64,000 bases of DNA from a virus. A program made the position numbers and the translations under genes. Positions 36,706-60,054 of the stretch are shown piece by piece. The stretch is taken from positions 9,733-73,732 of IMG/VR virus record IMGVR_UViG_3300032030_000058; one strand, 5' to 3'. Position 1 is the stretch's first letter; the number at the start of each line of letters is the position of its first letter. Below the pieces are notes generated by a model. The model did no database searches and was not told where the DNA came from. It saw only the letters and a list, made by a program, of their open reading frames with translations.

Positions 36706-37017
36706 TTATTTATTGGGATATATCTCGCCAGCTTCAGGATCGAACACAAGCCTATTCTTATTTAAGTTATCCAAGAACGCGCCGATTTTCATTAATGTGT
36801 CACTGCGTAGCGCGTCATATTCTTTATTGTATACAAAAATATATTCTTTAATTTTGTTTTGATAAACAATCGTGCCGATGAAATAGTTTTTCTTTTTGTA
36901 AATCGTTTTATCTTTTCTGCGTGAAAAAACAAAAATGACGTTATTGATATCTTCTCTTGGTGGCCTTGTCATTTTTCCTGGGACAAAATCTAAATATTCA
37001 CTGGTAAGTCCGTTCAT
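36706..37017 (-). CDS. hypothetical protein
   Basis: 103 aa, ATGA-coupled to upstream gene. Confidence 0.45.
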   Translation of the reverse strand: MNGLTSEYLDFVPGKMTRPPREDINNVIFVFSRRKDKTIYKKKNYFIGTIVYQNKIKEYIFVYNKEYDALRSDTLMKIGAFLDNLNKNRLVFDPEAGEIYPNK

Positions 37018-37304
37018 AATAATACCTCTTTCAATAAATCATATTCTTCTTGGGTTTTACAACGATAAACTTGTTGCCCATTTATTAAAATATAATAAGC
37101 AATTTCATCTTCACCAAAGTTTTTTCTTGTTTTAAAACTAATACCACCAATAGTTGGCAACATAAATGTCTTAAAAATATCTAGTGCTTTGAGTTCTTGC
37201 TCAATGATATTAGCCCATTTATTGTTACAATTTTGAGTAAAAATATCAGCTTCTGTATCTGCTATTATTTTTAAGTTCTCTAATGCCTCTAAACCTTTAC
37301 TCAT
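37014..37304 (-). CDS. paralog family B protein (ELKALDI...EEYDLLKEVLL)
   Basis: 96 aa, shares internal ELKALDIFK and C-terminal QEEYDLLKEVLL with five other ORFs. Confidence 0.55.
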   Translation of the reverse strand: MSKGLEALENLKIIADTEADIFTQNCNNKWANIIEQELKALDIFKTFMLPTIGGISFKTRKNFGEDEIAYYILINGQQVYRCKTQEEYDLLKEVLL

Positions 37305-37437
37305 TTTCTTTCTCCTTATCTTTAATTATTTTATAAAAAACTTTTGCAAAAAAATCTCCAATTATATTATGAATAACGAGTAATCCAAATAGTGAAATGA
37401 ACACTATAAAAAGCCATAATGGTATTTCTACAATCAT
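37300..37437 (-). CDS. possible 45 aa membrane peptide
   Basis: ATGA-coupled to both neighbours; hydrophobic core. Confidence 0.3.
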
Positions 37438-37778
37438 AACAATTCCAAATCTCCTTTTTCGTTCAATAATTTGTATTTTTTTCCAAACCTATCAGTAAAA
37501 ATATGAATTTCTTTAACTTTTAGCGAAGGAATATCTAACCATTTTCTTTCTTCATGTTTTATCATTACATTTCCATCACATAAACAAGGAAGAATATATT
37601 TTATTTGTCCGTTGTATTCAACTTCAAACCATGTTCCATAATAATTGCTAAATACTTGAACAAACTTAACTTTTGTTCCTTTAGGACAAATAAGAGGATA
37701 TTGGCATCCTGTATTATAAAACCATCTTTCATTTTCGGTTTCTATCGTAACATATTTAAAATCTTCTAAATTAAACAT
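37434..37778 (-). CDS. hypothetical protein
   Basis: 114 aa ORF ending KGDLELL. Confidence 0.5.
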   Translation of the reverse strand: MFNLEDFKYVTIETENERWFYNTGCQYPLICPKGTKVKFVQVFSNYYGTWFEVEYNGQIKYILPCLCDGNVMIKHEERKWLDIPSLKVKEIHIFTDRFGKKYKLLNEKGDLELL

Positions 37779-38191
37779 AATTTTCCTTCTTCATTCATTT
37801 TGGCGACATATTTCAAACCCCATTCAGTCCAAATTGCTGCATAGATTATCATGCCATTTTTAATATCATCTAATTGTGATTGTGATAATTTTTTAGGCAT
37901 CTTAATAATCATTGGTTTTGTGCCGTTGTCCCACACATATTCATCACATAATTCTGCGATGGAATGAGCGGTTTTTACCACGTCACTGTCCCAGACACAA
38001 TCCATAGAACGACCACCTAATTCATCATATTCTATATGTTCGCCTTTATCTTCATCAAAATAATAAATACAATAGGCACCTTCTTCGCCAACAACATCGT
38101 CTTTATTATATTCAATAGAAGATACAACATTTGGAATCATTCCGTATATTTTGTTTTTAGTTTTTACATAAATGTTCATGCTGCAACACAC
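37766..38191 (-). CDS. paralog family A protein
   Basis: Contains SIAELCDEY and C-terminal YAAIWTEWGLKYVAKMNEEGKL. Confidence 0.55.
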   Translation of the reverse strand: MCCSMNIYVKTKNKIYGMIPNVVSSIEYNKDDVVGEEGAYCIYYFDEDKGEHIEYDELGGRSMDCVWDSDVVKTAHSIAELCDEYVWDNGTKPMIIKMPKKLSQSQLDDIKNGMIIYAAIWTEWGLKYVAKMNEEGKLCLI

Positions 38192-38318
38192 TCCCTTACT
38201 CTTTTTCTGTTTCTTACTATTCGATAGGCCGCTTCAATTTCTTCTTCACTTAACGCTTCCAATAAATCAGCAAGCTCTAATACCGCGGCATTTTTAATTT
38301 TTTCATCATTTTCGTTGT

Positions 38319-38660
38319 TCATAACAATTCCCAATCTCCTTTATCGTTCATTTTTGCTACATATTTCAAACCCCATTCAGTCCAAATCGCACCATAGATT
38401 TCTTTTATAAAATCGTTCCTTACTTTGTTATAACAATTTCTTTCACTTTTCATCGACCTATAACTTGTTCTTTCCCAAATACCTATTTCTGTAATTAACA
38501 CAAACTTATCACACAAATCTTCAATAGTGTCGGCTTGGGCAATAATTTCGTCATTTGATATTATTATCTCTTGAGCGATAAGTGTTTCTAATTCAAGTGT
38601 TGACATTTCATCTCTAAAACTTTTTAGTATTCTTTCGTCTTTCGTTCTAACGTATTTCAT
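38319..38660 (-). CDS. paralog family A protein
   Basis: ADTIEDLCDKF ... YGAIWTEWGLKYVAKMNDKGDWELL. Confidence 0.55.
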   Translation of the reverse strand: MKYVRTKDERILKSFRDEMSTLELETLIAQEIIISNDEIIAQADTIEDLCDKFVLITEIGIWERTSYRSMKSERNCYNKVRNDFIKEIYGAIWTEWGLKYVAKMNDKGDWELL

Positions 38661-38992
38661 AGTAGTTCTAATTCTCCTTTATCATTCATTCTCGCGACAT
38701 AGATAAGGCCCTTGTTCTCGACATGAATTGCTCCATAAACAGGACTTTCCGGATATTTTAATTTTTGCTCTTTTAATCTTGTTAAGTCTGTGTGATCAAA
38801 TTTTAAGATGAAATCCTTGCAGCCCTTATTTCGTTTGATTTTGATAAAACAATCGCATAGTTTTTCGATGGAATCAGCTCTAGCAATAATTTTGCTCGAT
38901 TTAAAATCACCATTTTCTTGATAAAGATATTCTGTCATTGTTTTATCTTGTAATGGAAAAATATGTCCATCTTCTGTTCTTATTAAACTCAT
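38657..38992 (-). CDS. paralog family A protein
   Basis: ADSIEKLCDCF ... YGAIHVENKGLIYVARMNDKGELELL. Confidence 0.55.
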   Translation of the reverse strand: MSLIRTEDGHIFPLQDKTMTEYLYQENGDFKSSKIIARADSIEKLCDCFIKIKRNKGCKDFILKFDHTDLTRLKEQKLKYPESPVYGAIHVENKGLIYVARMNDKGELELL

Positions 38993-39393
38993 ACTAGCAC
39001 TGCCTTTCCTAATAGATTCATATCATAACCACTCTCGATGAATTGAACAGTTAAGTTATGATTCACTCGATTTCCTAGTTTCTCATAAATGTATTGATAG
39101 TCGTCATGATTAAAATGAGTGTCTAACATATAATTGATAAAACGTTCTATTTTTCTTCTTAGCGTATCTTCTCCAAACCAGTGATTATCAGCCACAAAGA
39201 ATGACAACCACTCTAAGCATTTGCATTTAAATTCTAGTTCGGTTTCGACATCTTCTAAGCGAAAATAAGCATTTAGTTTTGGAGCAATAATTATTTCATT
39301 GTGGTTGTTAATAAATACTCTTAATCCTTGTGGATTGCAAATTGCTTTGTTTATTAAATTTTGAACTTCTGGCGTTCTCATAATAATTTCCAT
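38989..39393 (-). CDS. hypothetical protein
   Basis: 134 aa ORF. Confidence 0.5.
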   Translation of the reverse strand: MEIIMRTPEVQNLINKAICNPQGLRVFINNHNEIIIAPKLNAYFRLEDVETELEFKCKCLEWLSFFVADNHWFGEDTLRRKIERFINYMLDTHFNHDDYQYIYEKLGNRVNHNLTVQFIESGYDMNLLGKAVLV

Positions 39394-39704
39394 CCCCCTT
39401 CTTTATTCATTTCAGCAACATATTTTAATCCGTTAGCGGTCCAAATAGCTCCATAGATATAAAAACCACTAACCAACATTTTTAATAATTCAGATTGTCT
39501 TAATTTACCAAATTGCAATTTTGTGTAAATTTTATAACTGCCATGTTTCACAGTCACATAACGATTGAGCAGTTCATCAACTGTATCTGCGCTTTTATAA
39601 TGTCCCCCTATACATACTTCATTTGGTTTTAAGTTATAGTAGGTGTCTTTAACAATCAAGCCACGCACATCTATGATTCTGTCCTGATACTTGACATAGT
39701 TCAT
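39378..39704 (-). CDS. paralog family A protein
   Basis: ADTVDELLNRY ... YGAIWTANGLKYVAEMNKEGGWKLL. Confidence 0.55.
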   Translation of the reverse strand: MNYVKYQDRIIDVRGLIVKDTYYNLKPNEVCIGGHYKSADTVDELLNRYVTVKHGSYKIYTKLQFGKLRQSELLKMLVSGFYIYGAIWTANGLKYVAEMNKEGGWKLL

Positions 39705-40201
39705 TAATAACGATATCTCCTTTTAAATATCACTCTGTCCTTTAACAACTTCTCGATAAACTCAGGATCACAATCATATAATGTTTGGAAATTATAATGT
39801 GCATCTTGCATCGGTGAATTCACGAACAGAATCGCGGCATCTTCATTATTTTTATCGATACTGACACAGATTTGGGCCGCTTCAAATTCTTTTCTAATTT
39901 CATCGGTCATGACTAAAGAACATTTTGTTTTTTGGTCCGGTTGTAGTTCTTCCTTAAATTCAAAACCGGAAAAATCCTCTTCACGTTCTTTTGTTGTCGC
40001 TTCTTCATAACAATGTTCTAAAAAACGAACACACTGAACAAAAAGTGGATTGTCCTCTTTTAATGTGACAGGGTGAGCAAAGATTTTAACTTCGTTGTCC
40101 TCGTCGGAATAAAATTGGAATCCATGCTCTAAAAGAAGCTCTGGATGTTTTTTAAATTTGTAAATTAATTGATATACGTAAGTAGTCTTTTTAGTTTTCA
40201 T
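39704..40201 (-). CDS. hypothetical protein
   Basis: 165 aa ORF. Confidence 0.5.
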   Translation of the reverse strand: MKTKKTTYVYQLIYKFKKHPELLLEHGFQFYSDEDNEVKIFAHPVTLKEDNPLFVQCVRFLEHCYEEATTKEREEDFSGFEFKEELQPDQKTKCSLVMTDEIRKEFEAAQICVSIDKNNEDAAILFVNSPMQDAHYNFQTLYDCDPEFIEKLLKDRVIFKRRYRY

Positions 40202-40455
40202 ACAATTTCATATCTCGCTTTCTCTGCTAATAATTTTAAGTCTTTTTGCATGTCCCTGTATAGTTTGTAGATGTGGGACATATCATTGATATCAAATAGA
40301 TTTTTTAACGGTTTTAAGAACCCGATAATTTTTTTCTTATTGGTATAAAAGACAATGTGTGTTTCCGCTAACGGATCGTCACGAAGAATATCAATGACTT
40401 CTTCACATTTTAATATGGTATAACCCATTTCGGTTACAGTATCATAGAAGTTCAT
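40198..40455 (-). CDS. hypothetical protein
   Basis: 85 aa ORF. Confidence 0.5.
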   Translation of the reverse strand: MNFYDTVTEMGYTILKCEEVIDILRDDPLAETHIVFYTNKKKIIGFLKPLKNLFDINDMSHIYKLYRDMQKDLKLLAEKARYEIV

Positions 40456-40457
40456 TT

Positions 40458-40805
40458 TTAATCACCAATAATGCCGTATAATTGCACATATTGAGCGTTT
40501 AAATTTTTAGACATTTCATAGGATAGTTCTGGCTCGTAACGATAAATTACATCGCCGTTCATTAACTGTAATTCGATGCCGACATAATTTGCCATTTTTC
40601 CGCCTTGGCTGACATATACACCGTCCGGTCCATATTCAGCCCAACCTCTGATGTGATAATACTTTGTGTCTGTGATCTGAGAATAGACTAAAGCATAGTA
40701 ATAGGTCTTTGAGCCGGTGACCATTTGGTTTCCACCCGGACCTTTTACATTCTCACATGATGTTAATAACATTAGTGGCAATAATGCTAATAATAATTTT
40801 TTCAT
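40458..40805 (-). CDS. lipoprotein
   Basis: Signal peptide MKKLLLALLPLMLLTSC with lipobox LTSC. Confidence 0.6.
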   Translation of the reverse strand: MKKLLLALLPLMLLTSCENVKGPGGNQMVTGSKTYYYALVYSQITDTKYYHIRGWAEYGPDGVYVSQGGKMANYVGIELQLMNGDVIYRYEPELSYEMSKNLNAQYVQLYGIIGD

Positions 40806-40807
40806 TT

Positions 40808-41062
40808 TTAAATTTCCTCCAAATGCTTTTTAATGTATTCGTTCCATTTTCCTTCAAAATGTTTCATTTCAAGATATCGATCGTTGGCTTCTTTTTCGTT
40901 TGCTATAACACCGAATCCACCGCCGAAGAAATAGATGGCAAAGATTATTCTTTCGCCTATATAGGCCGCTTCGGTTTTAGCCACAAAACAGAGCACTAAC
41001 AAGATAGTAGATGTAATTAAGAATGTGACAATCGGAGCTTTTGTATATGACCAGATTCTCAT
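40808..41062 (-). CDS. small membrane protein
   Basis: 84 aa with two hydrophobic helices. Confidence 0.5.
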   Translation of the reverse strand: MRIWSYTKAPIVTFLITSTILLVLCFVAKTEAAYIGERIIFAIYFFGGGFGVIANEKEANDRYLEMKHFEGKWNEYIKKHLEEI

Positions 41063-41086
41063 AATAATTCCTCTTTTAATAATTGC

Positions 41087-41449
41087 TTAGATTTCTTTAA
41101 CTTCATCTAAACGATAGAATCCATCAAGTTCGAATTCAGGAGCCATAAGAGCATAATCGAAGCCGATTTTCATATCTTCAGGAAGTTCTTCGAATTGCTT
41201 TTTCATTTCGATATCTGTAATCACACCCCTGGCATGATAAACATTCTTTTCTTTGTCGAATGAAATATCAATTTCGGTTTCGTATTGAACTCCTGGTTGA
41301 ATATAATCATCGCTTTGGGCCGTTTTATTTAAGGCTTCTTCAAAATGATTTTTGATTAAAGCAGTAATTTTGCTTTTGTCTTTAATGATGCCGATCGTTG
41401 AACGTTCTTCAAAATCTTCATAGAACGCGAATGTTAGTAATGTTTTCAT
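41087..41449 (-). CDS. hypothetical protein
   Basis: 120 aa ORF. Confidence 0.5.
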   Translation of the reverse strand: MKTLLTFAFYEDFEERSTIGIIKDKSKITALIKNHFEEALNKTAQSDDYIQPGVQYETEIDISFDKEKNVYHARGVITDIEMKKQFEELPEDMKIGFDYALMAPEFELDGFYRLDEVKEI

Positions 41450-41850
41450 AATAAATCCTCCTTATTAAAAGCCCATGTAACCTTATAATCTTTTATAAAA
41501 TATTGTGGCATTCCTTTTGATTTGTAAGTGAAATACCATCCATCATGTTCGTCATATCCAAATGTTAAATATGAACGACTATGGTAAGTATATCCTCTAA
41601 TCCCTTGTGTGTTTTTGACTAGAATACCATGACTACTTTTTAATGTCGCTAATATCGTATGAAGATCAAATTCGATATCTTCTTCATCATCTTCTAATTG
41701 ACCAAGTTTTTGTTGTCCTAAAAACAAACTATTTAACTCTCTTTGATTCCCACAATTATCAGTTATACATGAATTAGAATTATCTTTTTTAATTCTATAA
41801 AAGCCTGTTTCTAGTCCAATTATATTAGTTTCTTTTTCTGTATATCTCAT
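41446..41850 (-). CDS. hypothetical protein
   Basis: 134 aa ORF. Confidence 0.5.
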   Translation of the reverse strand: MRYTEKETNIIGLETGFYRIKKDNSNSCITDNCGNQRELNSLFLGQQKLGQLEDDEEDIEFDLHTILATLKSSHGILVKNTQGIRGYTYHSRSYLTFGYDEHDGWYFTYKSKGMPQYFIKDYKVTWAFNKEDLL

Positions 41851-42209
41851 AACAATTCCAATTCTCCTTTCTCATTCATTTTAGCGACATAAATTAAACC
41901 TTTATCGGTATAGATTGAACCCATTATTTGCCCAATTTCTTTGCAACGAATATCATAATTGCCTAAAAGTCTGTGTGTTTTAGATAAAGCAAATGTTATT
42001 CCATCTTTGTGAGAAATCTTATAATAATCACGATTATCAATATCGACAAACTCGTCACACAATTCTTCAATGGTGTCGGCAGACTTAATTATACAGCCTT
42101 CAAAATCTATACCGTTGTCTTGCAAATCAGCAACTTGTTCGCAGTGTTTTTTATAACTAACAATATATTCTTGCTCATAAAGACTGTCGTAAACTCTAAC
42201 GTATTTCAT
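41847..42209 (-). CDS. paralog family A protein
   Basis: Start at ATG 42207-42209 (MKYVRVYD) after AAGAGGTG; ADTIEELCDEF ... GSIYTDKGLIYVAKMNEKGELELL. Confidence 0.55.
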   Translation of the reverse strand: MKYVRVYDSLYEQEYIVSYKKHCEQVADLQDNGIDFEGCIIKSADTIEELCDEFVDIDNRDYYKISHKDGITFALSKTHRLLGNYDIRCKEIGQIMGSIYTDKGLIYVAKMNEKGELELL

Positions 42210-42388
42210 AGCAACACCTCTTTTACTAAGTCTTCTTTTTTCTTTTCGTGAGAATCGCATAATGAACACATAAAGCATTCTCCATACTCCTCACAAACCC
42301 AACCTTTTTCAGGAGCATAATAACTATGTTTACAAGTATGTTTGCATTTGCTATCTTTCATGAACGGCATGTTGATACATCTTTCCAT
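42206..42388 (-). CDS. small Cys-rich protein ending LVKEVLL
   Basis: 60 aa with CKHTCKH...CEEYGECFMCSLC. Confidence 0.4.
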   Translation of the reverse strand: MERCINMPFMKDSKCKHTCKHSYYAPEKGWVCEEYGECFMCSLCDSHEKKKEDLVKEVLL

Positions 42389-42516
42389 CCTTCATCAGTT
42401 ATTATTTCTGTCTTAATACTTTTGTATTGACCTTGCAAGAATTCAACTCCTCTTCGTGAATACAGTATTCTAACTGTTCCATCATTCATATAGAGAATAA
42501 ATCTTATTGTTGGCAT
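42358..42516 (-). CDS. possible 52 aa ORF
   Basis: ATG embedded in the KEVLLCQQ stop region of the upstream gene; no independent support. Confidence 0.25.
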   Translation of the reverse strand: MPTIRFILYMNDGTVRILYSRRGVEFLQGQYKSIKTEIITDEGWKDVSTCRS

Positions 42517-42830
42517 AATAATACCTCTTTTAATAGATCGTATTCTTCTTTTGTAAAAACACTGTTTTCCTCATAAGGGGGCATTGGTTCGTCAGCACTC
42601 TTAACAATTCTTCTAATAATGTCTAGTGCTTTTAATTCCTTGTAATCTTGAAACACTTGTTCCGGATGAATAAGACGTGGCTTTAGAGCTTCATATTCTC
42701 CAAGAACATTTTCAATGATGCTAAAAGAGCCTATAATGAATCTTCTATCTAATCCATTCTTTGTGTATGACAAAACAAAATCTTTTAATTGTTTTGATAC
42801 ATCTAACGGTGTCATTTTTTCATTTTCCAT
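42504..42830 (-). CDS. paralog family B protein
   Basis: ELKALDIIRRI ... TKEEYDLLKEVLL. Confidence 0.55.
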   Translation of the reverse strand: MENEKMTPLDVSKQLKDFVLSYTKNGLDRRFIIGSFSIIENVLGEYEALKPRLIHPEQVFQDYKELKALDIIRRIVKSADEPMPPYEENSVFTKEEYDLLKEVLLCQQ

Positions 42831-42842
42831 AGCAAATCCCCC

Positions 42843-43001
42843 TTATTTCTTTTGTTTTGGAATTACGACATAGACATCGCCGAACTTTCTCACTTCGGTT
42901 TTGCCATAGTTCTCTTTCTTGCACATACAAGCAAGTGCAGCTTCAAATGTTTTAAATTGTTCCCCAGTAATTAATAAATAATTTTCTAATTGTTTATCCA
43001 T
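42843..43001 (-). CDS. small hypothetical protein (52 aa)
   Basis: GGAGGAG RBS 4 nt before ATG 42999-43001. Confidence 0.45.
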   Translation of the reverse strand: MDKQLENYLLITGEQFKTFEAALACMCKKENYGKTEVRKFGDVYVVIPKQKK

Positions 43002-43146
43002 AATCTCCTCCTTATTTTACTAGCATTTTTAATTATTAATTTTACATCTAATTTAGAATTGTTTTTGACCTCTCTTTGTATCATAAACTCCTTAAAGTAA
43101 GGTAATAGTTGATGATATACTAAATCCCCGTATTTGTCGTAATCGA

Positions 43147-43467
43147 TCACAACAGTTCCAATTCCCCTTTCTCATTCATTTTTGCAACAGGTTCTAATCT
43201 CATAGCGCCATTATCTAATTCAATCCAAATTGCGCCATAGATAGTGTCATTTTTATCTGTGTAGAAATATTTCATTTCTTCAAAGTCCTTTTCTAATTCA
43301 GTTGCAGTCTTAGGTCTTCTAAATCTATAAGGAGCAACTAATATAAACTCGTCGCATAATTCTTCAATGGTATCGGCTTGTTTGATAATTTCATAAGTTT
43401 TAAATTGCTCAATGACAAAATCTTTTTCAATGTCAAATATTCCGTAGTTTGTTCTAATATATCTCAT
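43147..43467 (-). CDS. paralog family A protein
   Basis: ADTIEELCDEF ... YGAIWIELDNGAMRLEPVAKMNEKGELELL. Confidence 0.55.
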   Translation of the reverse strand: MRYIRTNYGIFDIEKDFVIEQFKTYEIIKQADTIEELCDEFILVAPYRFRRPKTATELEKDFEEMKYFYTDKNDTIYGAIWIELDNGAMRLEPVAKMNEKGELELL

Positions 43468-43871: not shown

Positions 43872-43898
43872 ATTTATTCCTCCTTGTTTCTTGCCTAT

Positions 43899-43927
43899 AT
43901 ACTATTACAAAAATAAAAATGTGTCAA
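43899..43927 (-). promoter_or_regulatory. minus-strand promoter with conserved UP element (copy 1)
   Basis: Minus strand reads caaaattattttaaaaaatatATTGACAcatttttatttttgtaa-TAGTAT; ~50 bp near-identical to the copy at 60349-60405. Confidence 0.55.
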
Positions 43928-43965
43928 TATATTTTTTAAAATAATTTTGTAAAAAAAAGATTCTA

Positions 43966-47226: not shown

Positions 47227-48624
47227 TTATCTCCTTTTGAGCCATCCAGCTCGTTTTTTATATTTTCCTATGCAATACGGGAAATTGATGTCCACGTAAT
47301 CATATACTTCTGGTTCTGGTTTCCCTTCACATACTCGTTCGATTCGACCCACACTCTGAATCGTATCAACTTTGTTGCTGTTCAACATCGCCCAGTGTAA
47401 GCAACTTAATTCTTTTATATCAAGTCCTTCTTTAGTTAATGCGTAGGAACCAACAATGACGTTATAGTCTACTAATCGATTAAGAATCTCAACTCTTTTT
47501 TTCTTTGTGACTTTTCCGACTAGTAACACACTTTTTATGCCTCGATCAAGAAGCATTTGATGGAGTGTTTCACAATGTTCAACTCGTTGACACAGCACGA
47601 TTTGTTTTTTGTGCGTTTTCAGCGTTTTTATAACATTCTCGACTATTTGTTCGTTTCGCTTTGTATTGTGTCCTAAATAGTCTAAAAGCGTCATATAATT
47701 GAATGTTCCGTCCGCATCTAACACTTCATATGTCCAAGGTGTATCTAAATCGACTCTAATATGTGTGGCTCGAAGCGTGTTAGTCTTACTTTTATCAATT
47801 GTGAACGTGGGTTCAAATTGACCAAGCATATTACACCCTAACGTTGTATACATACTTTTAATCATTGTATCGCTACGTTCTGGCGTAGCACTTAATCCAA
47901 ATTTGTATCGCGCTGGTATTTTCTCAATGACCTTAACGAACATTTTTCTAAGAGTAGGACTACCAGCACATTTATGACACTCGTCACAGACCACAACATC
48001 AAACAAGTCCTTATAATAATCTTCTTCTACATCAACTAATGTTTGAATAGTGGACACTGTAATTCCGTTTGTGACCATGTTCAGTTTTCCTTCGGTAATT
48101 GTACCTACTGGAATATCAGGATATAATAGATGGATTCTATCCACCGTCTGCCTTAGCAAATCTCCTGTATGACATAGCCATAATGCGTTATGACCTATTC
48201 TTTTAATGATTTCAATACCACAATTGGTTTTGCCAGAACCAGCTGCGGCTTCTAATACACCGCCTTTGGCAACAATCATTTTTTGTACAGCTTGTTCTTG
48301 ATAATCAAATAGTGGCATGCTTATTTTCATGTTTTGGTCAAGAACAACACCGTTGTCGTTCAGTTTCAATTCAATATCAGAATTTTTAATGAACGGCCAA
48401 ATCGCATATAATACTCCAAACGGAAGAATTAATCTGGCCATACCATAATTCACGAATAGTTTCATTTCTTGTGGAATATGATAACGCGCAATTTGATCTT
48501 GTTTGCCTAATCTAGTTAATGTTTGCCATTCTGGATTGGTGACAATTAAATTTTGCACACACCAAGAATATAATTCAGTTGAAGGACTATCTATTGTGAT
48601 TCTATTACTAACCAATACTTTCAT
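47227..48624 (-). CDS. SF2 DEAD/DEAH-box helicase
   Basis: Motif I AAGSGKT, motif II CDECH, motif III SAT. Confidence 0.8.
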   Translation of the reverse strand: MKVLVSNRITIDSPSTELYSWCVQNLIVTNPEWQTLTRLGKQDQIARYHIPQEMKLFVNYGMARLILPFGVLYAIWPFIKNSDIELKLNDNGVVLDQNMKISMPLFDYQEQAVQKMIVAKGGVLEAAAGSGKTNCGIEIIKRIGHNALWLCHTGDLLRQTVDRIHLLYPDIPVGTITEGKLNMVTNGITVSTIQTLVDVEEDYYKDLFDVVVCDECHKCAGSPTLRKMFVKVIEKIPARYKFGLSATPERSDTMIKSMYTTLGCNMLGQFEPTFTIDKSKTNTLRATHIRVDLDTPWTYEVLDADGTFNYMTLLDYLGHNTKRNEQIVENVIKTLKTHKKQIVLCQRVEHCETLHQMLLDRGIKSVLLVGKVTKKKRVEILNRLVDYNVIVGSYALTKEGLDIKELSCLHWAMLNSNKVDTIQSVGRIERVCEGKPEPEVYDYVDINFPYCIGKYKKRAGWLKRR

Positions 48625-51623: not shown

Positions 51624-51699
51624 TGGCAACGATGCCTGGGCTCGAACCAGGGAATATTAGAGTCAAAGTCTAATGCCTTACCAACTTGGCTACATCGTT
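51624..51699 (-). tRNA. tRNA-Gln (anticodon UUG)
   Basis: 76 nt; acceptor AACGATG/CATCGTT, anticodon stem TTAGA/TCTAA with loop CTTTGAC, T-arm CCTGG-TTCGAGC-CCAGG, encoded CCA. Confidence 0.85.
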
Positions 51700-51786
51700 A
51701 TAATGATGGCGAAGTTACCCAATTACCGACTTTCATAGAACTAATTAGCGTTCTCCAGTTTTCATCGCTTCGCCTGGGATAAATTT

Positions 51787-51873
51787 TGGCGGAAAGCCAG
51801 GGACTCGAACCCTGAATGCCTTTCGGCACAACGGTTTTCAAGACCGCCTGAATACCAATTATCACAGCCCTCC
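51787..51873 (-). tRNA. tRNA-Ser (anticodon UGA), class II
   Basis: 87 nt; anticodon loop CTTGAAA, long variable arm GCCGAAAGGC, T-arm CAGGG-TTCGAGT-CCCTG, encoded CCA. Confidence 0.8.
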
Positions 51874-51874
51874 G

Positions 51875-51962
51875 TGGCGGAAGGTATAGGATTCGAACCT
51901 ATGCGCCCATCGGGCCTAGCGATTTAGCAAACCGCCCCCTTCAGCCAACTTGGGTAACCTTC
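51875..51962 (-). tRNA. tRNA-Ser (anticodon GCU), class II
   Basis: 88 nt; perfect acceptor GGAAGGT/ACCTTCC, anticodon loop TTGCTAA, long variable arm, T-arm ATAGG-TTCGAAT-CCTAT, CCA. Confidence 0.8.
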
Positions 51963-51965
51963 CGT

Positions 51966-54659: not shown

Positions 54660-54863
54660 TTATAACATTTTCAAGAGTTCTTGATAATCATAACCTAGCG
54701 CATCTGCCACTTTTTTGACCGCAATAGGTTGCGGTTTCGATTTGGTTCTGTTTCTGGTCCAATTCGTGAGTGTGGCTTGGCTGATACCAGATAGATTAGC
54801 AAGTTCTTTTAATGTTAAGTTTTTTTCTTTTCTTAATTCATTAATCTTTTCGCCGAATGTCAT
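54660..54863 (-). CDS. XRE-family HTH transcriptional regulator
   Basis: NELRKEKNLTLKELANLSGISQATLTNW helix-turn-helix. Confidence 0.75.
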   Translation of the reverse strand: MTFGEKINELRKEKNLTLKELANLSGISQATLTNWTRNRTKSKPQPIAVKKVADALGYDYQELLKML

Positions 54864-55228: not shown

Positions 55229-55229
55229 A

Positions 55230-55481
55230 TTAGAGCTCCTTTATCATTTTGATGATAAGTTCTTTTTCCGCTTCGTTTTTTGGCATAATTCTGAATAAAT
55301 CACAACCAATAATATCGAGTGGATTCTCGCCTAATGCTGTTCCGATTTTAGCGGCTAAACTAGCACTGCAACGATGATTTTCGGCGTAGCCGACTGCATG
55401 GATTGCAATGCCGATTTTTTCCGCTAATTGTTTTTGAGTAAGACCATGTTTTACTCTGTAAAAGGCAATATTGTTACTCAT
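55230..55481 (-). CDS. XRE-family HTH transcriptional regulator
   Basis: FYRVKHGLTQKQLAEKIGIAIHAVGYAE helix-turn-helix; own promoter (TTGACA 55527-55532 on the minus strand). Confidence 0.7.
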   Translation of the reverse strand: MSNNIAFYRVKHGLTQKQLAEKIGIAIHAVGYAENHRCSASLAAKIGTALGENPLDIIGCDLFRIMPKNEAEKELIIKMIKEL

Positions 55482-55550
55482 ATAAATCTCCTTTCTTAGT
55501 TATATATTCTCATAATAATTTAAATATGTCAATAATTATTTTCATTTTAA

Positions 55551-55796
55551 TTATAAATCTTTGCTATTTATTTCAATGATTGTGCCGCACTTGGTGCATC
55601 TATATTTAACCATGCCTAATGAGTCACTTCCAATCCATTTAAGAAGGTCGCTTCCACATTCTGGACACGTAGGCCGTGTATATGGTTTTGAGTTGATACA
55701 ACAACCGATTTCAGCGTGTTGTTCCATTAAATCGATGAACTGTTTAATTTCTTCTGGTGATCCAGTAATTATATAATCACGATATTGTAGAATCAT
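55551..55796 (-). CDS. zinc-ribbon protein
   Basis: CPECGSD...CTKCG. Confidence 0.5.
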   Translation of the reverse strand: MILQYRDYIITGSPEEIKQFIDLMEQHAEIGCCINSKPYTRPTCPECGSDLLKWIGSDSLGMVKYRCTKCGTIIEINSKDL

Positions 55797-56338
55797 AATA
55801 GTTCCTCTTTCTTTTCATATTTCCATTCATATCCATACATTGTTTTGAATTTTCCTCTTGCACAAGCTGCTATGTTACCTTCCGAATAGCCAAGTTTTCT
55901 AGTTACTTCTCTTACACCTTCATATCTAGCAATAACTTTGCCATCTTTGATTTGTAAGATTGCTTTTTGGTTTTTCTGTTTTGCACATTCTATGGTTTTT
56001 CTAAAGTTGATTTGCAGCCCAGTATTGTGCGCATGTAACATATTTTCTTTTCTATCGTTCCATTCCAGGTTGCTAACAGTATTGTTATATTTATTGCCAT
56101 CGATATGATTCACTTCTTCTTTGTTTAAAGGATTAGGAATAAAGGCTTGTCCTACCAGTCTATGGATTTTGAATAATGTTTTCTTACCGTTGATTTTCAA
56201 AGTAATAACTTGGTAGATTCCATAATTATTATTCAGTTTTAATATTCTTCCTGTTTGTGCGTTTCTTACTCGCCCATAGCTGCTTATTTGATATATTCCG
56301 TTAGAGTTAGGTATATCTTTCCATTCTTCTTGGTTCAT
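55793..56338 (-). mobile_element. HNH homing endonuclease with N-terminal NUMOD4 motif
   Basis: EEWKDIPNSNGIYQISSYGRVRN (NUMOD4) and NHIDGNKYNNTVSNLEW...N (HNH_3 core). Confidence 0.85.
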
Positions 56339-56706
56339 AGTAATTCCTCCCTTGTTAATGCCCAGGTTTTGCCATAGTCTTTATAATAAAATCTAAATCT
56401 TTTTTTCAGGTTGGCGTCCCAAACTTCTATTATATTTCTCAAAGTATAAACATGATAGTGACCTGCTTTTTTGATTTTTCCTTCTATGACAAAATACGGA
56501 ATTAAATTATTTATTTGCCATTCAAGAAATTTAACCAAAGGCATTTCAATTTTTTCTTCATAATCTTCTAATTGACCGAGTTTGTTAAGTGAATGTCTTA
56601 CATATTCGCCAATGACTAATGGTTTCAGTTCTTCATCAACGCTTTCATCGATAACAAGATTTATGTCATACCAACCATCTTCTCTTTTTTTGGTTCTTCT
56701 ATTCAT
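56335..56706 (-). CDS. hypothetical protein
   Basis: 123 aa ORF. Confidence 0.5.
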   Translation of the reverse strand: MNRRTKKREDGWYDINLVIDESVDEELKPLVIGEYVRHSLNKLGQLEDYEEKIEMPLVKFLEWQINNLIPYFVIEGKIKKAGHYHVYTLRNIIEVWDANLKKRFRFYYKDYGKTWALTREELL

Positions 56707-56915
56707 AATAATTTACCCCATTCTTTCTTATAAGTTTTTATAATGTTGAACTCATTATCTTTTGTGTTAACAAGCACAAACTTATTATCCACACACATAA
56801 TTGCTAAATCGCTATTGTTTTTAATTCTTTTTAATGCGCTGAAAATATCTTTGTAAATATCAGTAACATCTTCTAAATGTAAATCTTTCATTCTTCTACC
56901 TCCACATAGCACCAA
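56703..56915 (-). CDS. hypothetical protein
   Basis: 70 aa ORF. Confidence 0.45.
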   Translation of the reverse strand: MVLCGGRRMKDLHLEDVTDIYKDIFSALKRIKNNSDLAIMCVDNKFVLVNTKDNEFNIIKTYKKEWGKLL

Positions 56916-57493
56916 CTTCGAGGCGCTTTGGTTAATGGATAAGTATATTCATAACCACATTTTATGGGTTGAACAAGAACATCTTTTTCTTTATGAATGT
57001 CTTGTGCGAAATTATTTTTATAATATTTTCTCTTAAAACCTTTATAGAACTCACTCAATTCCTTTGGTGCATCAAAGATTTCTAGTTGTGAGATGTTAAT
57101 GGCATAACCTATATTTCCGTCGAGATATTTTTTGATTTCTTGTTTTGTTAAACAACTATTTTCAAATAAATTTTTTGGATTTTCTTCGTTTGGTGTCCAC
57201 CAAATAATTTCCACATTATCACAATAGAAACGAGCAACTACTTTGCCATTGTATTTAGAAATATATCTATGATTTTTATTAGAAAGAGTATGTTTTCTAT
57301 ATTTTCCAACAGAGTAATACCATTTGTTTGTTTTTTCATCTAATGTTAATTCTTGTTGATTATCTTTCGTGCAATAAATATATATCCAACCAACATAATC
57401 AATAGGGAACATTTTTCTAACTTCTTTTGTTTTAAGTCTGTTAAGAATATTTGCAACTGGTCTAGGGTGTATACTCATTAATATTGATCTCAT
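56888..57493 (-). CDS. hypothetical protein
   Basis: 201 aa ORF. Confidence 0.5.
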   Translation of the reverse strand: MRSILMSIHPRPVANILNRLKTKEVRKMFPIDYVGWIYIYCTKDNQQELTLDEKTNKWYYSVGKYRKHTLSNKNHRYISKYNGKVVARFYCDNVEIIWWTPNEENPKNLFENSCLTKQEIKKYLDGNIGYAINISQLEIFDAPKELSEFYKGFKRKYYKNNFAQDIHKEKDVLVQPIKCGYEYTYPLTKAPRSWCYVEVEE

Positions 57494-57771
57494 AATAGCA
57501 CCTCTTTTAATAAATCATATTTTTCTTTTGATATGCGTTTTGCGTATCTAAAATCATCACCTACTAATAAATAATATTCATCTTTAACTCCTAGAACTCT
57601 GACATCAGCATACTCTTTAATAATCTCTAATGCTTTGAGTTCTTGTTCAATGTTATTTACACATTCGAGCATTACTACATCTTCTTGCCAATAATGTAAA
57701 CTAATATATCCATTTTCTACGAGCCATTTAAAATCATCTAACCCTTTACTCATTTCGTTCCACCTCTCCAT
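57490..57771 (-). CDS. paralog family B protein
   Basis: ELKALEIIKEY ... EKYDLLKEVLL. Confidence 0.55.
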   Translation of the reverse strand: MERWNEMSKGLDDFKWLVENGYISLHYWQEDVVMLECVNNIEQELKALEIIKEYADVRVLGVKDEYYLLVGDDFRYAKRISKEKYDLLKEVLL

Positions 57772-57912
57772 TAAATTGTTTTGCTAATTTTGTGGCTTCT
57801 TCTTTATCGAATGTTTTAGCTCTGTCTTTATTATCTGTGAAATAATACCAACCAGTGGCATTCTTAATTTTATAAAGATAATGGCCATTGCTGTTCTTGA
57901 CTATGTATTGTT

Positions 57913-58152
57913 TCATAAATTTTCGTCCTCCAAATAATAAATTTCAGAAATACCATACGCATAATATCCTAGTTCTTTTTTACAATTGTGACATTCAATG
58001 GTTCCCTCGCATGGCATAAAACATCCACAGACATCTTCACTATATACGGGCTTATCACGATTGAATCCCACTAATGTTGAACCACAATAAGGACATTTGA
58101 GAAAACTGTATTTATCAATATAGCCTTGTTCTAATGCTTCTTCGTATGTCAT
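57913..58152 (-). CDS. zinc-ribbon protein
   Basis: CPYCGS...CHNCKK. Confidence 0.5.
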   Translation of the reverse strand: MTYEEALEQGYIDKYSFLKCPYCGSTLVGFNRDKPVYSEDVCGCFMPCEGTIECHNCKKELGYYAYGISEIYYLEDENL

Positions 58153-58472
58153 TATAGAACCTCCTTTAATTGGCTAAATTCTTTCTGGGTGAGGAATAAA
58201 TGCTGAGCACCATTCACACCCTGATTAGATGCAACTTTGTTATATTGCAAAACGTTTTTGCATTGTTTCACTAACACGCAATTAACGTTTTTTTCTTTGA
58301 TAATTTTCAGAACTTTAGATTCTTTCCAACTAGCATAATCTAAATAATGGTAATCATTTTCTAGTTTTTCAAATTGGTAAAGAGCAGCTTTCACGATACG
58401 AAAATATTTTTCCTTATCATTAAAGCTAATAAAAGGATTCTCGATATATTCCATTGCTTCTAATGGTGTCAT
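58152..58472 (-). CDS. paralog family B-like protein
   Basis: KVLKIIKEKNVNCVL ... QKEFSQLKEVL. Confidence 0.5.
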   Translation of the reverse strand: MTPLEAMEYIENPFISFNDKEKYFRIVKAALYQFEKLENDYHYLDYASWKESKVLKIIKEKNVNCVLVKQCKNVLQYNKVASNQGVNGAQHLFLTQKEFSQLKEVL

Positions 58473-58870
58473 AACAACACCTCCTTTAATAAATCATATT
58501 CTTCTTGGGTTAATGGTTTCTCACTAACTTGTTTTATAATTTGAAAACCTAATTCTAAATGTTCTTCATAGTTTTGATAATCAAGTGCCTTATACCCTAT
58601 TAGAAATAAACCAACATTTACTTTTTTCTCTTTAATAATACTAAGAGCTTCGATTTTCTTTTCGTTTTCAAGAAAATACAAGACTACTAGCCATAAATCC
58701 TTATACGCTTGATTTTTATTGTAATTTTCGCTTTTGTTTCTTTCTATATCGTTAAAAAACATATCAATAGGGAAAGCAGAATTACCAATGTCATAACATA
58801 GTTCTCGTAATTCTTCTATTTCAAGTTCGGTAAGGACTGTGTTTAAATCAAATAATTTGTCAAAAGTCAT
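58469..58870 (-). CDS. paralog family B protein
   Basis: IEALSIIKEKKVNVGLF ... QEEYDLLKEVLL. Confidence 0.55.
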   Translation of the reverse strand: MTFDKLFDLNTVLTELEIEELRELCYDIGNSAFPIDMFFNDIERNKSENYNKNQAYKDLWLVVLYFLENEKKIEALSIIKEKKVNVGLFLIGYKALDYQNYEEHLELGFQIIKQVSEKPLTQEEYDLLKEVLL

Positions 58871-58891
58871 AACAATATACCTCGTTAGATT

Positions 58892-59560
58892 CTATTCTTC
58901 TGGGTTGTATTTGAATACCACATCAAAATAGGTATCAAGAACCTTGTCAACATCTGCCATAAGCTCTTCATCATTAGAAAGTTTGAAGAACCAGTCTAAA
59001 ATGGCTTTTCCTTTTGTTAAATCTTTTTCAAAATCAGCATCACTCCAATAGAAACATTTGAAATCTTTATCGTAGTGTGAGTATCCGAATCTTTCAAAGA
59101 AACTTAAACCGTTCTTGATATCAAACGAACCAAATGCGTGACTATATCCGGTGCTACCTAAAACAACAGAGAATAGGTCTGGAAAATGGTCTTGGAAAAA
59201 TTCGTTAATCCCAGAATGCGAACCGAAAACACGATCGTATAATTTGCTTTCAAGTTCTCCGTTGGCAGCATACATTCCACAGTATAATCTTTCGCCATAT
59301 AGACTTAAACTAATATAAGTGTGTTTTCCTAAAGTTAATTCTTCTTTTTCTCCAAGTTTTTCTTGGAAATATTCTAATAGTTTAATGACATAAGAAAGAT
59401 ATTTGCTCTTTCTTTCAATTTCATCTGGCTTGAATGCTGTAATGCTTTCAAAAATTTGATAATCTTTTTCGTGAGCAGCGTCTGCATCAACTTTAACGAC
59501 TGCTAAAAATTTAACTGTTTCTTTTAATCTATCAATTTCTCTTTGTAAATATTTGTTCAT
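58892..59560 (-). CDS. hypothetical protein
   Basis: 222 aa ORF. Confidence 0.5.
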   Translation of the reverse strand: MNKYLQREIDRLKETVKFLAVVKVDADAAHEKDYQIFESITAFKPDEIERKSKYLSYVIKLLEYFQEKLGEKEELTLGKHTYISLSLYGERLYCGMYAANGELESKLYDRVFGSHSGINEFFQDHFPDLFSVVLGSTGYSHAFGSFDIKNGLSFFERFGYSHYDKDFKCFYWSDADFEKDLTKGKAILDWFFKLSNDEELMADVDKVLDTYFDVVFKYNPEE

Positions 59561-60054
59561 AACATTACCTCCTTTAACAAATTAAATTCAAGTTCGGTTA
59601 ACGGTTCTTTGCTTTTTTCTGTTATATAATAAGAATTTGTTCTTCCTACTTTATAAGATTCTATATATTCATCATACCCACCATTTATATCTTCGTGTTC
59701 TATAAATAAAGTATAAAATAAACCAACATCAACCTTTTTCGCTTTTATAATATCTAATGCGGCCACTTTCTTAGCACTTTCTAGTTTCGCAGCATCTTCT
59801 GCTTCAAGTAAGGATTCGGCCACGTCCTCAATCATGTTAAAATATTCATCTGTGACATTTTCATAATCGATGCGATATCCGTTTCGTTGCAGGATCATTT
59901 CTATGGTTATAACACAATCCATACAACCATCCTCAAACATACAGTAGCATTCATTACAACACCAGTGATAACCGCAACAATAATATGGCTCATAATCGCC
60001 CATCATACTAATGCAGTGTTGATTAAATTTCTCTCTCCAAATGTGCTTACTCAT
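59557..60054 (-). CDS. paralog family B protein with N-terminal Cys cluster
   Basis: VAALDIIKAKKVDVGLF ... ELEFNLLKEVML. Confidence 0.55.
   Translation of the reverse strand: MSKHIWREKFNQHCISMMGDYEPYYCCGYHWCCNECYCMFEDGCMDCVITIEMILQRNGYRIDYENVTDEYFNMIEDVAESLLEAEDAAKLESAKKVAALDIIKAKKVDVGLFYTLFIEHEDINGGYDEYIESYKVGRTNSYYITEKSKEPLTELEFNLLKEVML

What the first reader, a model, noticed from the sequence alone, without database searches (positions are those of the whole stretch)
37014..60054. Second paralog family (B) whose conserved C-terminus ...EEYDLLKEVLL encodes the RBS and start of the downstream gene
Family B comprises 37014-37304, 42504-42830, 57490-57771, 58469-58870 and 59557-60054, plus the related 58152-58472 and 42206-42388. 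The full members share ELKAL(D/E)II(K/R) and a C-terminal (E/K)EYDLLKEVLL; 58152-58472 (QKEFSQLKEVL) and 42206-42388 (LVKEVLL) share only the tail. At the nucleotide level the last codons read ttaaaGGAGGtnntnttATGA. The KEV codons form the SD and the stop overlaps the next gene's ATG. The family A C-terminus KGELELL likewise encodes AAGGAG. The conserved junctions may act as recombination linkers that shuffle small-gene cassettes.
Basis: seen in the sequence. Interest (0 to 1): 0.55.

Follow-up and report, generated by a model that had tools for sequence, protein, structure and literature searches.

The report
Phage gene tails encoding next gene's start
Six to seven small early genes of an uncultured phage belong to a large, never-annotated protein family whose conserved last helix (…EEYDLLKEVLL) also spells the ribosome-binding site and start codon of the next gene; this is ordinary translational coupling, though it sits on an unusually shuffled gene family.

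Summary
Seven minus-strand genes end in …KEVL(L), encoded as AAR GAG GTN YTN TTA TGA. The downstream ATG overlaps the stop in five of them and sits in the same register in the other two.

Six are true paralogs. One (42206-42388) shares only the tail.

The family is large: 2,956 clusters at 50% identity in metagenomes. It has no Pfam or PHROG model, no hit in 50,697 GenBank phage records, and one confirmed hit in GTDB genomes.

Codon statistics show two layers of constraint:
- LTQEEYDLL is conserved as protein, because its synonymous sites vary.
- The last five codons are tuned as a translation initiation region. In KEV, Glu is GAG in 35 of 38 tails against an 18% background, while the two Glu just upstream are GAA in 64 of 69.

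The "recombination linker" idea is only partly supported. Two chimeric genes have breakpoints at the internal ALEIIKEK patch, and one homology block ends exactly at ATGA. Two decayed "ghost tails" lie upstream of other genes. No close relatives were available to map indel breakpoints. The protein's function is unknown.

The parts
59557..60054 (-). Family B member B5 (165 aa): Cys-rich N-domain plus C-terminal module (KVAALDIIKAKKVDV ... LTELEFNLLKEVML)
   Evidence: module profile E 1.8e-18
58469..58870 (-). Family B member B4 (133 aa). It is chimeric: the N-domain is ~80% nt identical to L002 and the C-module is 88% nt identical to L001.
   Evidence: AF2 model pLDDT 86.8, all-alpha
58152..58472 (-). 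Family B member b6 (106 aa). It is a full member (ESKVLKIIKEKNVN ... LTQKEFSQLKEVL) and forms a TAATG junction with the next gene.
   Evidence: E 9.9e-21; AF2 pLDDT 92.5, long helix 17-61 plus a small helical C-domain
57490..57753 (-). Family B member B3 (87 aa from MSKGL; the ORF extends to 57771)
42504..42830 (-). Family B member B2 (108 aa). The tail KEVLL is followed by CQQ because the stop in TTATGA is TGC; the downstream ATG is kept in register at 42516.
37014..37304 (-). Family B member B1 (96 aa, MSKGLEALE... ELKALDIFK ... TQEEYDLLKEVLL)
42206..42388 (-). b7: Cys-rich small ORF that shares only the tail (DLVKEVLL). It is not detected by the protein module profile, and its start is ambiguous (42388 or 42361).
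   Evidence: (DNA tail profile E 1.9e-6, model positions 19-45)
59557..59600 (-). Tail/TIR of B5: AAG GAG GTA ATG TTA TGA, serving as SD, spacer and ATGA start of gene 58892-59560
58469..58512 (-). Tail/TIR of B4: AAG GAG GTG TTG TTA TGA, ATGA start of b6
   Evidence: E 1.2e-14
58149..58192 (-). Tail/TIR of b6: AAG GAG GTT CTA TAA TG, start of gene 57913-58152
57489..57528 (-). Tail/TIR of B3: AAA GAG GTG CTA TTA TGA, ATGA start of gene 56888-57493
42514..42556 (-). Tail/TIR of B2: AAA GAG GTA TTA TTA TGC, ATG start of gene 42358-42516
42206..42232 (-). Tail/TIR of b7: AAA GAG GTG TTG CTA TGA, ATGA start (42208) of a family-A gene (MKYVRV...)
37014..37056 (-). Tail/TIR of B1: AAA GAG GTA TTA TTA TGA, ATGA start of gene 36706-37017
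   Evidence: E 2.6e-13
58631..58657 (-). Internal conserved patch (KIEALSIIK) of B4, where the two homology blocks (L002-like and L001-like) meet. Equivalent patches lie at 59743-59769, 58296-58322, 57616-57642, 42612-42638 and 37170-37196.
58867..58905 (-). Probable decayed ('ghost') tail upstream of B4: ACCCAGAAGAATAGAATCTAACGAGGTATATTGTTATGA. It provides the last codons (PEE*) of gene 58892-59560 and the SD of B4, and it aligns with an intact family-B tail at the same place in L002.
   Evidence: E 0.25, spans model positions 5-45; marginal on its own
41058..41082 (-). Intergenic tail-like TIR TTATTAAAAGAGGAATTATTATGAG upstream of gene 40808-41062. It would read LLKEELL* but lies outside any ORF.
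   Evidence: D4, D6; E 0.028

Best explanation
Family B is a lineage-expanded family of small, all-helical early proteins of uncultured tailed phages. The family carries no annotation in any database tested.

A typical member has three parts:
- a variable N-terminal part;
- a long helix ending in (K/E)LKALEIIKEK;
- a small helical C-domain whose last helix is LTQEEYDLLKEVL(L).

That last helix is conserved as protein. Its final five codons are also the translation initiation region of the next gene:
- K-E-V is read from AAR-GAG-GTR, which is the Shine-Dalgarno sequence (complement of the 16S rRNA 3' end).
- L-L is read from TTG-TTA, which is the 5-7 nt spacer.
- The A of the last Leu codon plus the TG of the TGA stop form the ATG.

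A ribosome that finishes the family-B gene therefore terminates on top of the next start codon, with an SD just behind it, and re-initiates. This is translational coupling, and it lets long strings of small genes be expressed from one early transcript without intergenic space.

What is shown: the geometry, the codon-level selection for the SD, the protein-level conservation upstream of it, the size and distribution of the family, and its mosaicism.

What is inferred: that coupling actually operates.

A by-product is that the two to three conserved coding patches are the only stretches of DNA homology between otherwise unrelated phages. Domain and cassette exchange appears to occur at them. These patches are the 5' MSKELTPLEAL, the internal ALEIIKEK, and the 3' tail with its TIR.
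For: Geometry:
- The ATG is in fixed register after KEV in 7 of 7 window members.
- Among 45 members on ~30 contigs, 35 have a -4 (ATGA) overlap and 44 of 45 overlap the next ORF.
- By comparison, 15 of 53 non-B junctions in the window have the -4 overlap.

Codon evidence in the window:
- Glu is GAG in 14% of gene-body codons (80 of 574) but 48% in the last six codons.
- It is GAG in 7 of 7 KEV motifs, while the EEYD glutamates are GAA.

Codon evidence in 41 non-redundant tails:
- KEV Glu is GAG in 35 of 38, against an 18% background.
- The two upstream Glu are GAA in 64 of 69.
- Val is GTG or GTA in 36 of 39, against 38%.
- The next Leu is TTG in 24 of 38, against 14%.
- The last Leu is xTA in 26 of 26.

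Natural experiment: in L028 the ATG is displaced. There KEV uses GAA, and a new L-E-V (TTG GAG GTA) supplies the SD.

Extended tails:
- Four proteins with extended tails keep GAG and the ATG in the canonical place; only the stop is lost.
- Extensions such as LLC.. and LLW.. among representatives fit TGA changing to TGC or TGG with the ATG preserved.

Protein-level constraint:
- Tyr is TAT/TAC 14/10 and Asp is GAT/GAC 17/13, so these sites are polymorphic.
- AF2 places EEYDLLKEVL in a confident terminal helix.

Generality in this phage: other families end KGELELL, KEDLL, REELL, KEELL and KRR*. These are the SD read in the other frames.

Family size and lack of annotation: 2,956 representatives at E<=1e-3. 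There is no Pfam or PHROG model, no PDB sequence hit and no source name.

The NNA-UGA bias caused by overlapping starts is documented generally (PMC7246954).
Against: - No expression data exist, so coupling is inferred from sequence only.
- For the three residues K-E-V themselves, protein constraint and SD constraint cannot be separated cleanly. In every extended-tail case examined but two (L024, L028), the SD is still in use.
- Four of the seven window tails have AGAGGT rather than GGAGGT.
- The start of b7, and hence its status as a gene, is uncertain.
Confidence: 0.8

Rival explanations
1. Recombination-linker model. The conserved tail plus junction, and the internal ALEIIKEK patch, are maintained because they serve as short homology substrates. 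Phage recombination shuffles small-gene cassettes and protein domains through them, comparable to PeSL cassettes in T4-type phages.
For: - The only DNA homology between the window and 26 unrelated viral contigs consists of islands of roughly 30-60 nt, mostly 80-96% identical, at the tail and at ALEIIKEK.
- B4 is chimeric. It is ~80% nt identical to L002 from 31 nt upstream of its ATG to the ALEIIK patch, and 88% identical to L001 from that patch to ATGA. All three are unrelated downstream.
- P0007 in L001 is chimeric too: an L008-like N-domain (84%) joined to a B4-like C-module.
- Near-identical C-modules sit on four or more unrelated N-termini.
- Tandem arrays of 2-3 members occur in L002, L014, L015 and L019.
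- Ghost tails lie at 58867-58905 and 41058-41082.
- Downstream genes fall into 32 clusters among 45.
- The relative L033 keeps the replication core but has a different small-gene set.
- Phage recombinases are known to recombine short diverged homologies (PMC3945230), and PeSLs are a precedent (PMC2839356, PMC4122927).
Against: - Synonymous sites in the tail are not homogenised, and Tyr and Asp are more mixed than background. Every synonymous bias that is present improves the SD.
- Homology blocks must end at conserved patches for trivial reasons, because every member shares them.
- Mosaic joints at gene borders are also expected from illegitimate recombination followed by selection.
- The tail flanks only family-B genes, not every cassette.
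- It contains no promoter or terminator.
- No close relatives were found to map indel endpoints.
- An annealing recombinase was not identified in the window; only an exonuclease, an SSB and a weak RecU hit were found.
Confidence: 0.35
2. Pure protein motif. The C-terminal helix is conserved only for protein function, and its resemblance to an SD followed by ATGA is incidental.
For: - The motif extends 13-14 residues, far beyond any SD.
- It forms a confident helix in the AF2 models.
- K-E-V-L is kept in L024 and L028 even with a GAA codon.
Against: - GAG is used in 35 of 38 KEV motifs against an 18% background, while the adjacent Glu codons follow the background.
- Val is restricted to GTR and the last Leu to xTA.
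- The ATG stays in fixed register even when the stop is lost.
- 44 of 45 members overlap the next ORF.
Confidence: 0.03
3. Pure nucleotide signal. The whole tail is conserved as RNA or DNA (an extended TIR, RNA structure or protein-binding site), and the peptide it encodes is irrelevant.
For: - Tail-like sequences also occur outside ORFs (41058-41082) and on an unrelated ORF (b7).
- Thr is ACC in 17 of 35 tails against a 15% background, which is an unexplained synonymous bias upstream of the SD.
Against: - Third positions of Tyr, Asp and Leu in LTQEEYDLL vary freely while the amino acids stay fixed.
- Conservative replacements (Y/F, D/N/S, E/K/Q) preserve helix character.
- The tail co-occurs with the ALEIIKEK helix and a YN motif in a single confidently folded domain.
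Confidence: 0.04

Closest known systems
Translational coupling through 4-nt ATGA stop/start overlaps with the downstream Shine-Dalgarno inside the upstream ORF. This is general bacterial and phage operon architecture. The C-terminal NNA-UGA codon bias is documented in PMC7246954.
   Same: The ATGA overlap, an SD 5-8 nt upstream of the ATG inside the upstream coding sequence, and codon bias at the last codons caused by the overlapping start.
   Different: The SD/spacer/ATG unit is locked into a conserved structural helix of one large protein family at a fixed register. The same dual-coded 45 nt therefore recur six to seven times in one genome and across thousands of metagenomic relatives.
PeSLs, the mobile promoter-early/stem-loop regulatory cassettes of T4-type phages (Arbiol et al. 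2010, PMC2839356; Comeau et al. 2014, PMC4122927)
   Same: Short repeated sequences with a gene-expression role lie at the borders of small, variable, function-unknown early genes. They are proposed to act as homology for cassette shuffling.
   Different: PeSLs are non-coding promoter-plus-terminator units that flank each cassette. Here the repeat is protein-coding (a helix) plus an SD and ATG, it belongs to one gene family, and it has no promoter or hairpin. Shuffling is documented here mainly at an internal protein motif and has not been shown between near-identical genomes.
Relaxed homologous recombination by phage recombinases as a source of mosaicism (De Paepe et al. 2014, PMC3945230), and the classical 'linker/boundary sequence' idea for lambdoid phages (Susskind & Botstein; Clark et al. 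2001; from my own knowledge, not checked here)
   Same: Mosaic joints coincide with short, diverged homology patches.
   Different: No recombinase of the Rad52, Sak or RecT type was identified in the window. The events are inferred from three-way comparisons of metagenomic contigs only.

Membership tests
Translationally coupled overlapping gene pair | [quoted passage not shown] | tested here: met
   ATGA in 5 of 7, TAATG in 1 of 7, and the ATG in register with a displaced stop in 1 of 7. Among relatives, 35 of 45 have the -4 overlap and 44 of 45 overlap the next ORF.
Translationally coupled overlapping gene pair | A Shine-Dalgarno sequence complementary to the 16S 3' end lies 5-9 nt upstream of the downstream ATG, inside the upstream ORF | tested here: met
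   A(A/G)GAGGT(G/A), then 5-7 nt, then ATG in all seven. The host 16S sequence is unknown, so complementarity is to the canonical anti-SD.
Translationally coupled overlapping gene pair | Selection acts on the nucleotide sequence beyond what the protein requires | tested here: met
   GAG in 35 of 38 against 18% background. GTR in 36 of 39 against 38%. TTG in 24 of 38 against 14%. Neighbouring Glu codons follow the background.
Translationally coupled overlapping gene pair | Downstream translation depends on translation of the upstream gene | not testable with these tools
   This needs reporter constructs or ribosome profiling. The host is unknown.
PeSL-type mobile regulatory cassette (T4-type phages) | The repeat contains an early promoter and a stem-loop terminator | tested here: not met
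   The tail holds only the SD, spacer and ATG, with no hairpin or promoter hexamers. A separate 67-nt promoter-like repeat exists at 43892-43958 and 60342-60408, but it heads whole operons rather than individual cassettes.
PeSL-type mobile regulatory cassette (T4-type phages) | Insertions, deletions and replacements between close relatives are bounded by the repeats | tested here: inconclusive
   No close relative was found. Two chimeras join at the ALEIIK patch and one block ends at ATGA. Two ghost tails were found.
Any curated protein family (Pfam-A, PHROGs v4, PDB sequences) | A significant profile match to the module | tested here: not met
   The window members have 0 Pfam hits above cut-off and 0 PHROG hits at E<0.01. 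No Pfam family is hit by more than 1 of 150 members. Eight canonical members have no relevant PHROG hit. The PDB profile search found 0 hits at E<=10. Fold searches returned only generic helical matches.

The most novel reading that the evidence does not exclude
Family B, together with family A, may be a built-in diversification system. Thousands of small early proteins would share three conserved coding patches: the 5' MSKELTPLEAL, the internal KALEIIKEK, and the 3' LTQEEYDLLKEVLL with its SD and ATG. These patches would double as recombination handles, so that N-domains, C-modules and downstream genes are continually re-assorted among co-infecting phages. Each transferred gene would carry its own ready-made initiation region. 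This would be a coding-sequence analogue of T4 PeSL cassettes, perhaps driving rapid turnover of host-takeover or anti-defence functions.
Probability: 0.2. Interest if true: 0.6.

Novelty: new member of a known kind. Interest (0 to 1): 0.33.

Why it matters
The mechanism, an SD and start codon embedded in the upstream gene's last codons, is textbook. The headline of the finding is therefore ordinary.

Three things are worth keeping:
- It is a clean natural example of dual coding in which the two layers can be separated codon by codon. Within a single motif, GAG is used in KEV and GAA two codons upstream.
- It reveals a very large protein family of about 3,000 clusters at 50% identity. The family has no entry in Pfam or PHROGs, was not found in GenBank phage records, and was confirmed only once in GTDB genomes. 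It is typically present in several copies per phage genome and sits in early operons.
- It gives concrete three-way chimeras showing domain exchange at a 27-nt conserved patch. That bears on how phage 'ORFan' regions turn over.

None of this resolves a long-standing question by itself.

Tried and rejected
- A megablast of 24 kb against 50,697 phage records found nothing. tblastn of a consensus module and of P0012 against the same records also found nothing, even at E<=1.
- Pfam and PHROG scans of the members, of canonical relatives and of 150 aligned members found no family. A PDB profile search returned 0 hits.
- The GTDB genome scan first failed for lack of a conserved enough pattern. With a tighter alignment it gave 1 confirmed locus out of 225 pattern matches. 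The confirmation step uses the atypical B4 module, so rarity in bacterial genomes is a lower bound, not proof of absence.
- The search for close relatives by the primase found none in IMG/VR. In JGI metagenomes it found only relatives at about 71% amino-acid identity, which is too distant to map indel endpoints.
- A first nucleotide-identity comparison used a gapped global aligner. It was misleading, giving 'body' identity 0.78, because cheap gaps inflate identity in AT-rich DNA. It was replaced by a protein-guided codon alignment.
- I first took retention of KEVL in proteins with extended tails as evidence for protein-level constraint. DNA of four such genes showed the SD and ATG still in the canonical place, so that argument was withdrawn. 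Only L024 and L028 bear on it.
- A C-terminal degron role for ...VLL was considered. Nothing here tests it.

Full report
CONTEXT

The window is part of a ~79-kb uncultured tailed-phage contig with about 31-35% G+C in this region. Nearly all genes between 36.7 and 60.6 kb lie on the minus strand. They include:
- a large terminase (35066-36610);
- a dUTPase-like gene;
- a primase/helicase (49022-51583);
- an exonuclease, an SSB and a RecU-like protein;
- an HNH/NUMOD4 endonuclease;
- two long runs of small genes without annotation.

No phage in GenBank is similar at the DNA level.

THE OBSERVATION

The last codons are AAA/AAG GAG GTN (K-E-V), then one or two Leu codons, then the stop.
- In B1, B3, B4, B5 and b7 the stop TGA overlaps the next gene's ATG (ATGA).
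- b6 has TAATG.
- B2 has the ATG in the same register, but TGC replaces TGA, which adds CQQ.
- For b7 the downstream family-A gene has to start at 42208 (MKYVRV...).

Three corrections are needed:
- b6 is a full family member, not tail-only.
- B3 probably starts at 57753.
- Only three of the seven tails read GGAGG. Four read AGAGG.

A protein alignment confirms the family.

The repeats are not a chance pattern:
- A DNA profile built only from 23 tails of other contigs recovers the seven window tails. E is 1e-14 to 2e-6 for six of them and 0.035 for b6. Nothing else in 64 kb scores better than E=0.028.
- In a protein-guided codon alignment, pairwise nucleotide identity is 0.73 in the last 14 codons, 0.62 at the ALEIIK patch and 0.41 elsewhere.

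WHAT THE FAMILY IS

An exhaustive HMMER search with a 56-position profile of the C-terminal module found many relatives among 1.84 billion cluster representatives: 2,956 at E<=1e-3 and 369 at E<=1e-10.

The consensus is (K/E)LKALEIIKEKxV(D/N)V..L......eYN.........LTQEEYDLLKEVLL, placed at the C-terminus behind unrelated N-terminal parts.

The family has no annotation in any resource tested:
- All relatives come from metagenomes (ENA, Logan, JGI). Many come from contigs of roughly 30-56 kb. None has a name beyond 'hypothetical protein', and only one listed protein has any Pfam domain on record.
- No Pfam family is hit by more than 1 of 150 members.
- There is no PHROG for it and no PDB sequence relative.
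- No cultured phage in INPHARED encodes it.
- Only one fragment among 185,579 GTDB species genomes was confirmed (this is a lower bound).

Structure prediction:
- The AF2 models are confident and all-helical. B4 has pLDDT 86.8 and b6 has 92.5.
- In b6 a 45-residue helix ends in the ALEIIKEK motif. A small helical domain follows, and its last helix is the tail.
- Fold searches return only generic helical bundles, so the function remains unknown.

Related contigs often carry two or three members in tandem.

TWO LAYERS OF CONSTRAINT IN THE TAIL

In the window, Glu is GAG in 14% of gene-body codons but in 48% of the last six codons. It is GAG in 7 of 7 KEV motifs, while the glutamates of EEYD are GAA.

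In 41 non-redundant tails from the fetched contigs and the window:
- KEV Glu is GAG in 35 of 38, against an 18% background.
- The two upstream Glu positions are GAA in 31 of 32 and 33 of 37.
- Val is GTG or GTA in 36 of 39, against 38%.
- The next Leu is TTG in 24 of 38, against 14%.
- The last Leu is TTA or CTA in 26 of 26, as required to form ATG.
- Tyr (TAT/TAC 14/10) and Asp (GAT/GAC 17/13) are more polymorphic than background.

So LTQEEYDLL is held by selection on the protein. The last five codons are additionally held as SD, spacer and start.

A natural experiment agrees with this. In L028 the tail is KEVLEVVDNE* and the next ATG is displaced. There KEV is AAG GAA GTG, and a new TTG GAG GTA eight nucleotides before the ATG supplies the SD.

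Four relatives with extended tails keep GAG and keep the ATG 5-8 nt after GAGGTG. Only the overlapping stop has been lost. This explains the LLC.. and LLW.. extensions seen among representatives.

For the residues K-E-V themselves, the protein and RNA constraints cannot be fully separated.

JUNCTION GEOMETRY ACROSS THE FAMILY

Of 45 members on about 30 distinct contigs, 35 overlap the next ORF by exactly 4 nt and 44 overlap it in some way. In the window, 15 of 53 non-B junctions have the 4-nt overlap.

Of 158 representatives, 118 have exactly two residues after KEV.

The phenomenon is general in this phage. Other families end KGELELL (AAA GGA GAA, family A), KEDLL, REELL, KEELL, or KRR* (AAA AGG AGA). 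These are the same SD read in the other two frames.

That overlapping starts bias the last codon toward NNA before UGA is documented across bacteria (PMC7246954).

The best explanation is therefore ordinary translational coupling. The unusual point is that the initiation region is locked into a conserved helix of an expanded family.

THE RECOMBINATION-LINKER IDEA

Evidence in favour:
- The only DNA similarity between the window and 26 otherwise unrelated viral contigs consists of islands of roughly 30-60 nt, mostly 80-96% identical, at the tail and at the ALEIIKEK patch.
- B4 is a chimera.
  - It is ~80% nt identical to L002 from 31 nt upstream of its ATG to the ALEIIK patch.
  - It is 88% identical to L001 from that patch to the ATGA.
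  - The three contigs are unrelated beyond the ATGA.
- The L001 gene is itself a chimera of an L008-like N-domain (84%) and the B4-like C-module, with the blocks meeting at the same patch.
- Nearly identical C-modules occur behind at least four unrelated N-termini.
- The 31 nt upstream of B4 align with an intact family-B tail in L002. In the window they form a decayed tail that supplies the stop of the unrelated 222-aa gene and the SD of B4.
- A second tail-like sequence is intergenic at 41058-41082.
- Downstream genes are mostly unrelated, falling into 32 clusters among 45. Some linkages recur, including other family-B genes, a family-A-like group, and relatives of the 201-aa gene.
- The relative L033, whose primase is 71% identical, keeps the replication core but has a different set of small genes with one family-B member elsewhere.

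Evidence against taking this as the reason for conservation:
- There is no homogenisation of synonymous sites.
- Homology blocks must end at patches that all members share.
- The best-documented joints are inside the gene rather than at the junction.
- No near-identical genomes were available.

I rate recombination at these patches as plausible (about 0.35, as a by-product). I rate it as unlikely to be the selected function.

COMPARISON WITH KNOWN SYSTEMS

The junction meets every sequence-testable criterion of a translationally coupled overlapping gene pair.

It resembles T4-type PeSL cassettes (PMC2839356, PMC4122927) in being a repeated expression signal at the borders of variable small early genes. 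It fails their defining composition, which is a promoter plus a stem-loop, and the bounded-indel criterion could not be tested.

Relaxed recombination by phage recombinases (PMC3945230) offers a mechanism. No annealase was identified in the window.

VERDICT

- The SD/ATGA reading is confirmed and is mechanistically ordinary.
- Cassette shuffling is suggestive but unproven.
- The protein family is real, very large and unannotated, and its function is unknown.
- Interest is modest (0.33). Novelty: a new member of a known kind.

Noticed in passing
window 43892-43958 and 60342-60408 (minus-strand sense): A 67-nt intergenic repeat, 91% identical, occurs at two sites. Each copy carries TTGACA-N17-TAGTAT or TTGACA-N17-TAATAT. 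The copy at 60.4 kb is preceded by a terminator-like hairpin (60431-60407). These are probably twin early promoters heading the two small-gene operons that hold families A and B.
   Followed up: partly
window 51624-51963 (-): A cluster of three tRNA genes (Gln-TTG, Ser-TGA, Ser-GCT) lies in the 693-nt gap between the SSB-like gene and the primase.
   Followed up: no
window 37434-43467 (family A: 37434-37778, 37766-38191, 38319-38660, 38657-38992, 39378-39704, 41847-42208, 43147-43467): A second paralog family has the C-terminus ...YGAIWT..GLKYVAKMN(E/D)KGELELL. Its KGE codons (AAA GGA GAA) are the SD read in another frame. It has no Pfam or PHROG hit. The same family precedes a family-B gene in the unrelated contig L001.
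   Followed up: partly
window 47227-48624 and 39704-40201 (3' ends): Two genes end in ...KRR* and ...KRRYRY*, with AAA AGG AGA. This is the third reading frame of the embedded SD, so all three frames of AAGGAG appear as C-terminal peptides in this phage.
   Followed up: no
window 41446-41850 and 56335-56706: A third small paralog pair ('family C') ends WAFNKEDLL and WALTREELL. The two share an internal 39-nt patch that is 87% identical (41671-41709 and 56545-56583). Neither has a Pfam hit, and 41446-41850 also has no PHROG hit.
   Followed up: no
window 55793-56338 (-): An HNH/NUMOD4 homing-endonuclease gene is embedded in the early small-gene operon. It also ends ...KEELL with an ATGA overlap.
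   Followed up: no
window 58867-58905 and 41058-41082 (-): Tail-like 'ghost' sequences lie outside family-B genes. One supplies the stop of the 222-aa gene and the SD of B4. The other is intergenic, upstream of gene 40808-41062.
   Followed up: yes
family-B tails in L001-L028 and the window, codon -8: The Thr in LTQEEY is ACC in 17 of 35 tails against a 15% background. This synonymous bias is not explained by the SD.
   Followed up: no
window 56888-57493 (-): The 201-aa gene downstream of B3 (phrog_3136, unknown function) follows a family-B gene in two other contigs as well (L013, L027). This is a recurrent linkage rather than free shuffling.
   Followed up: partly
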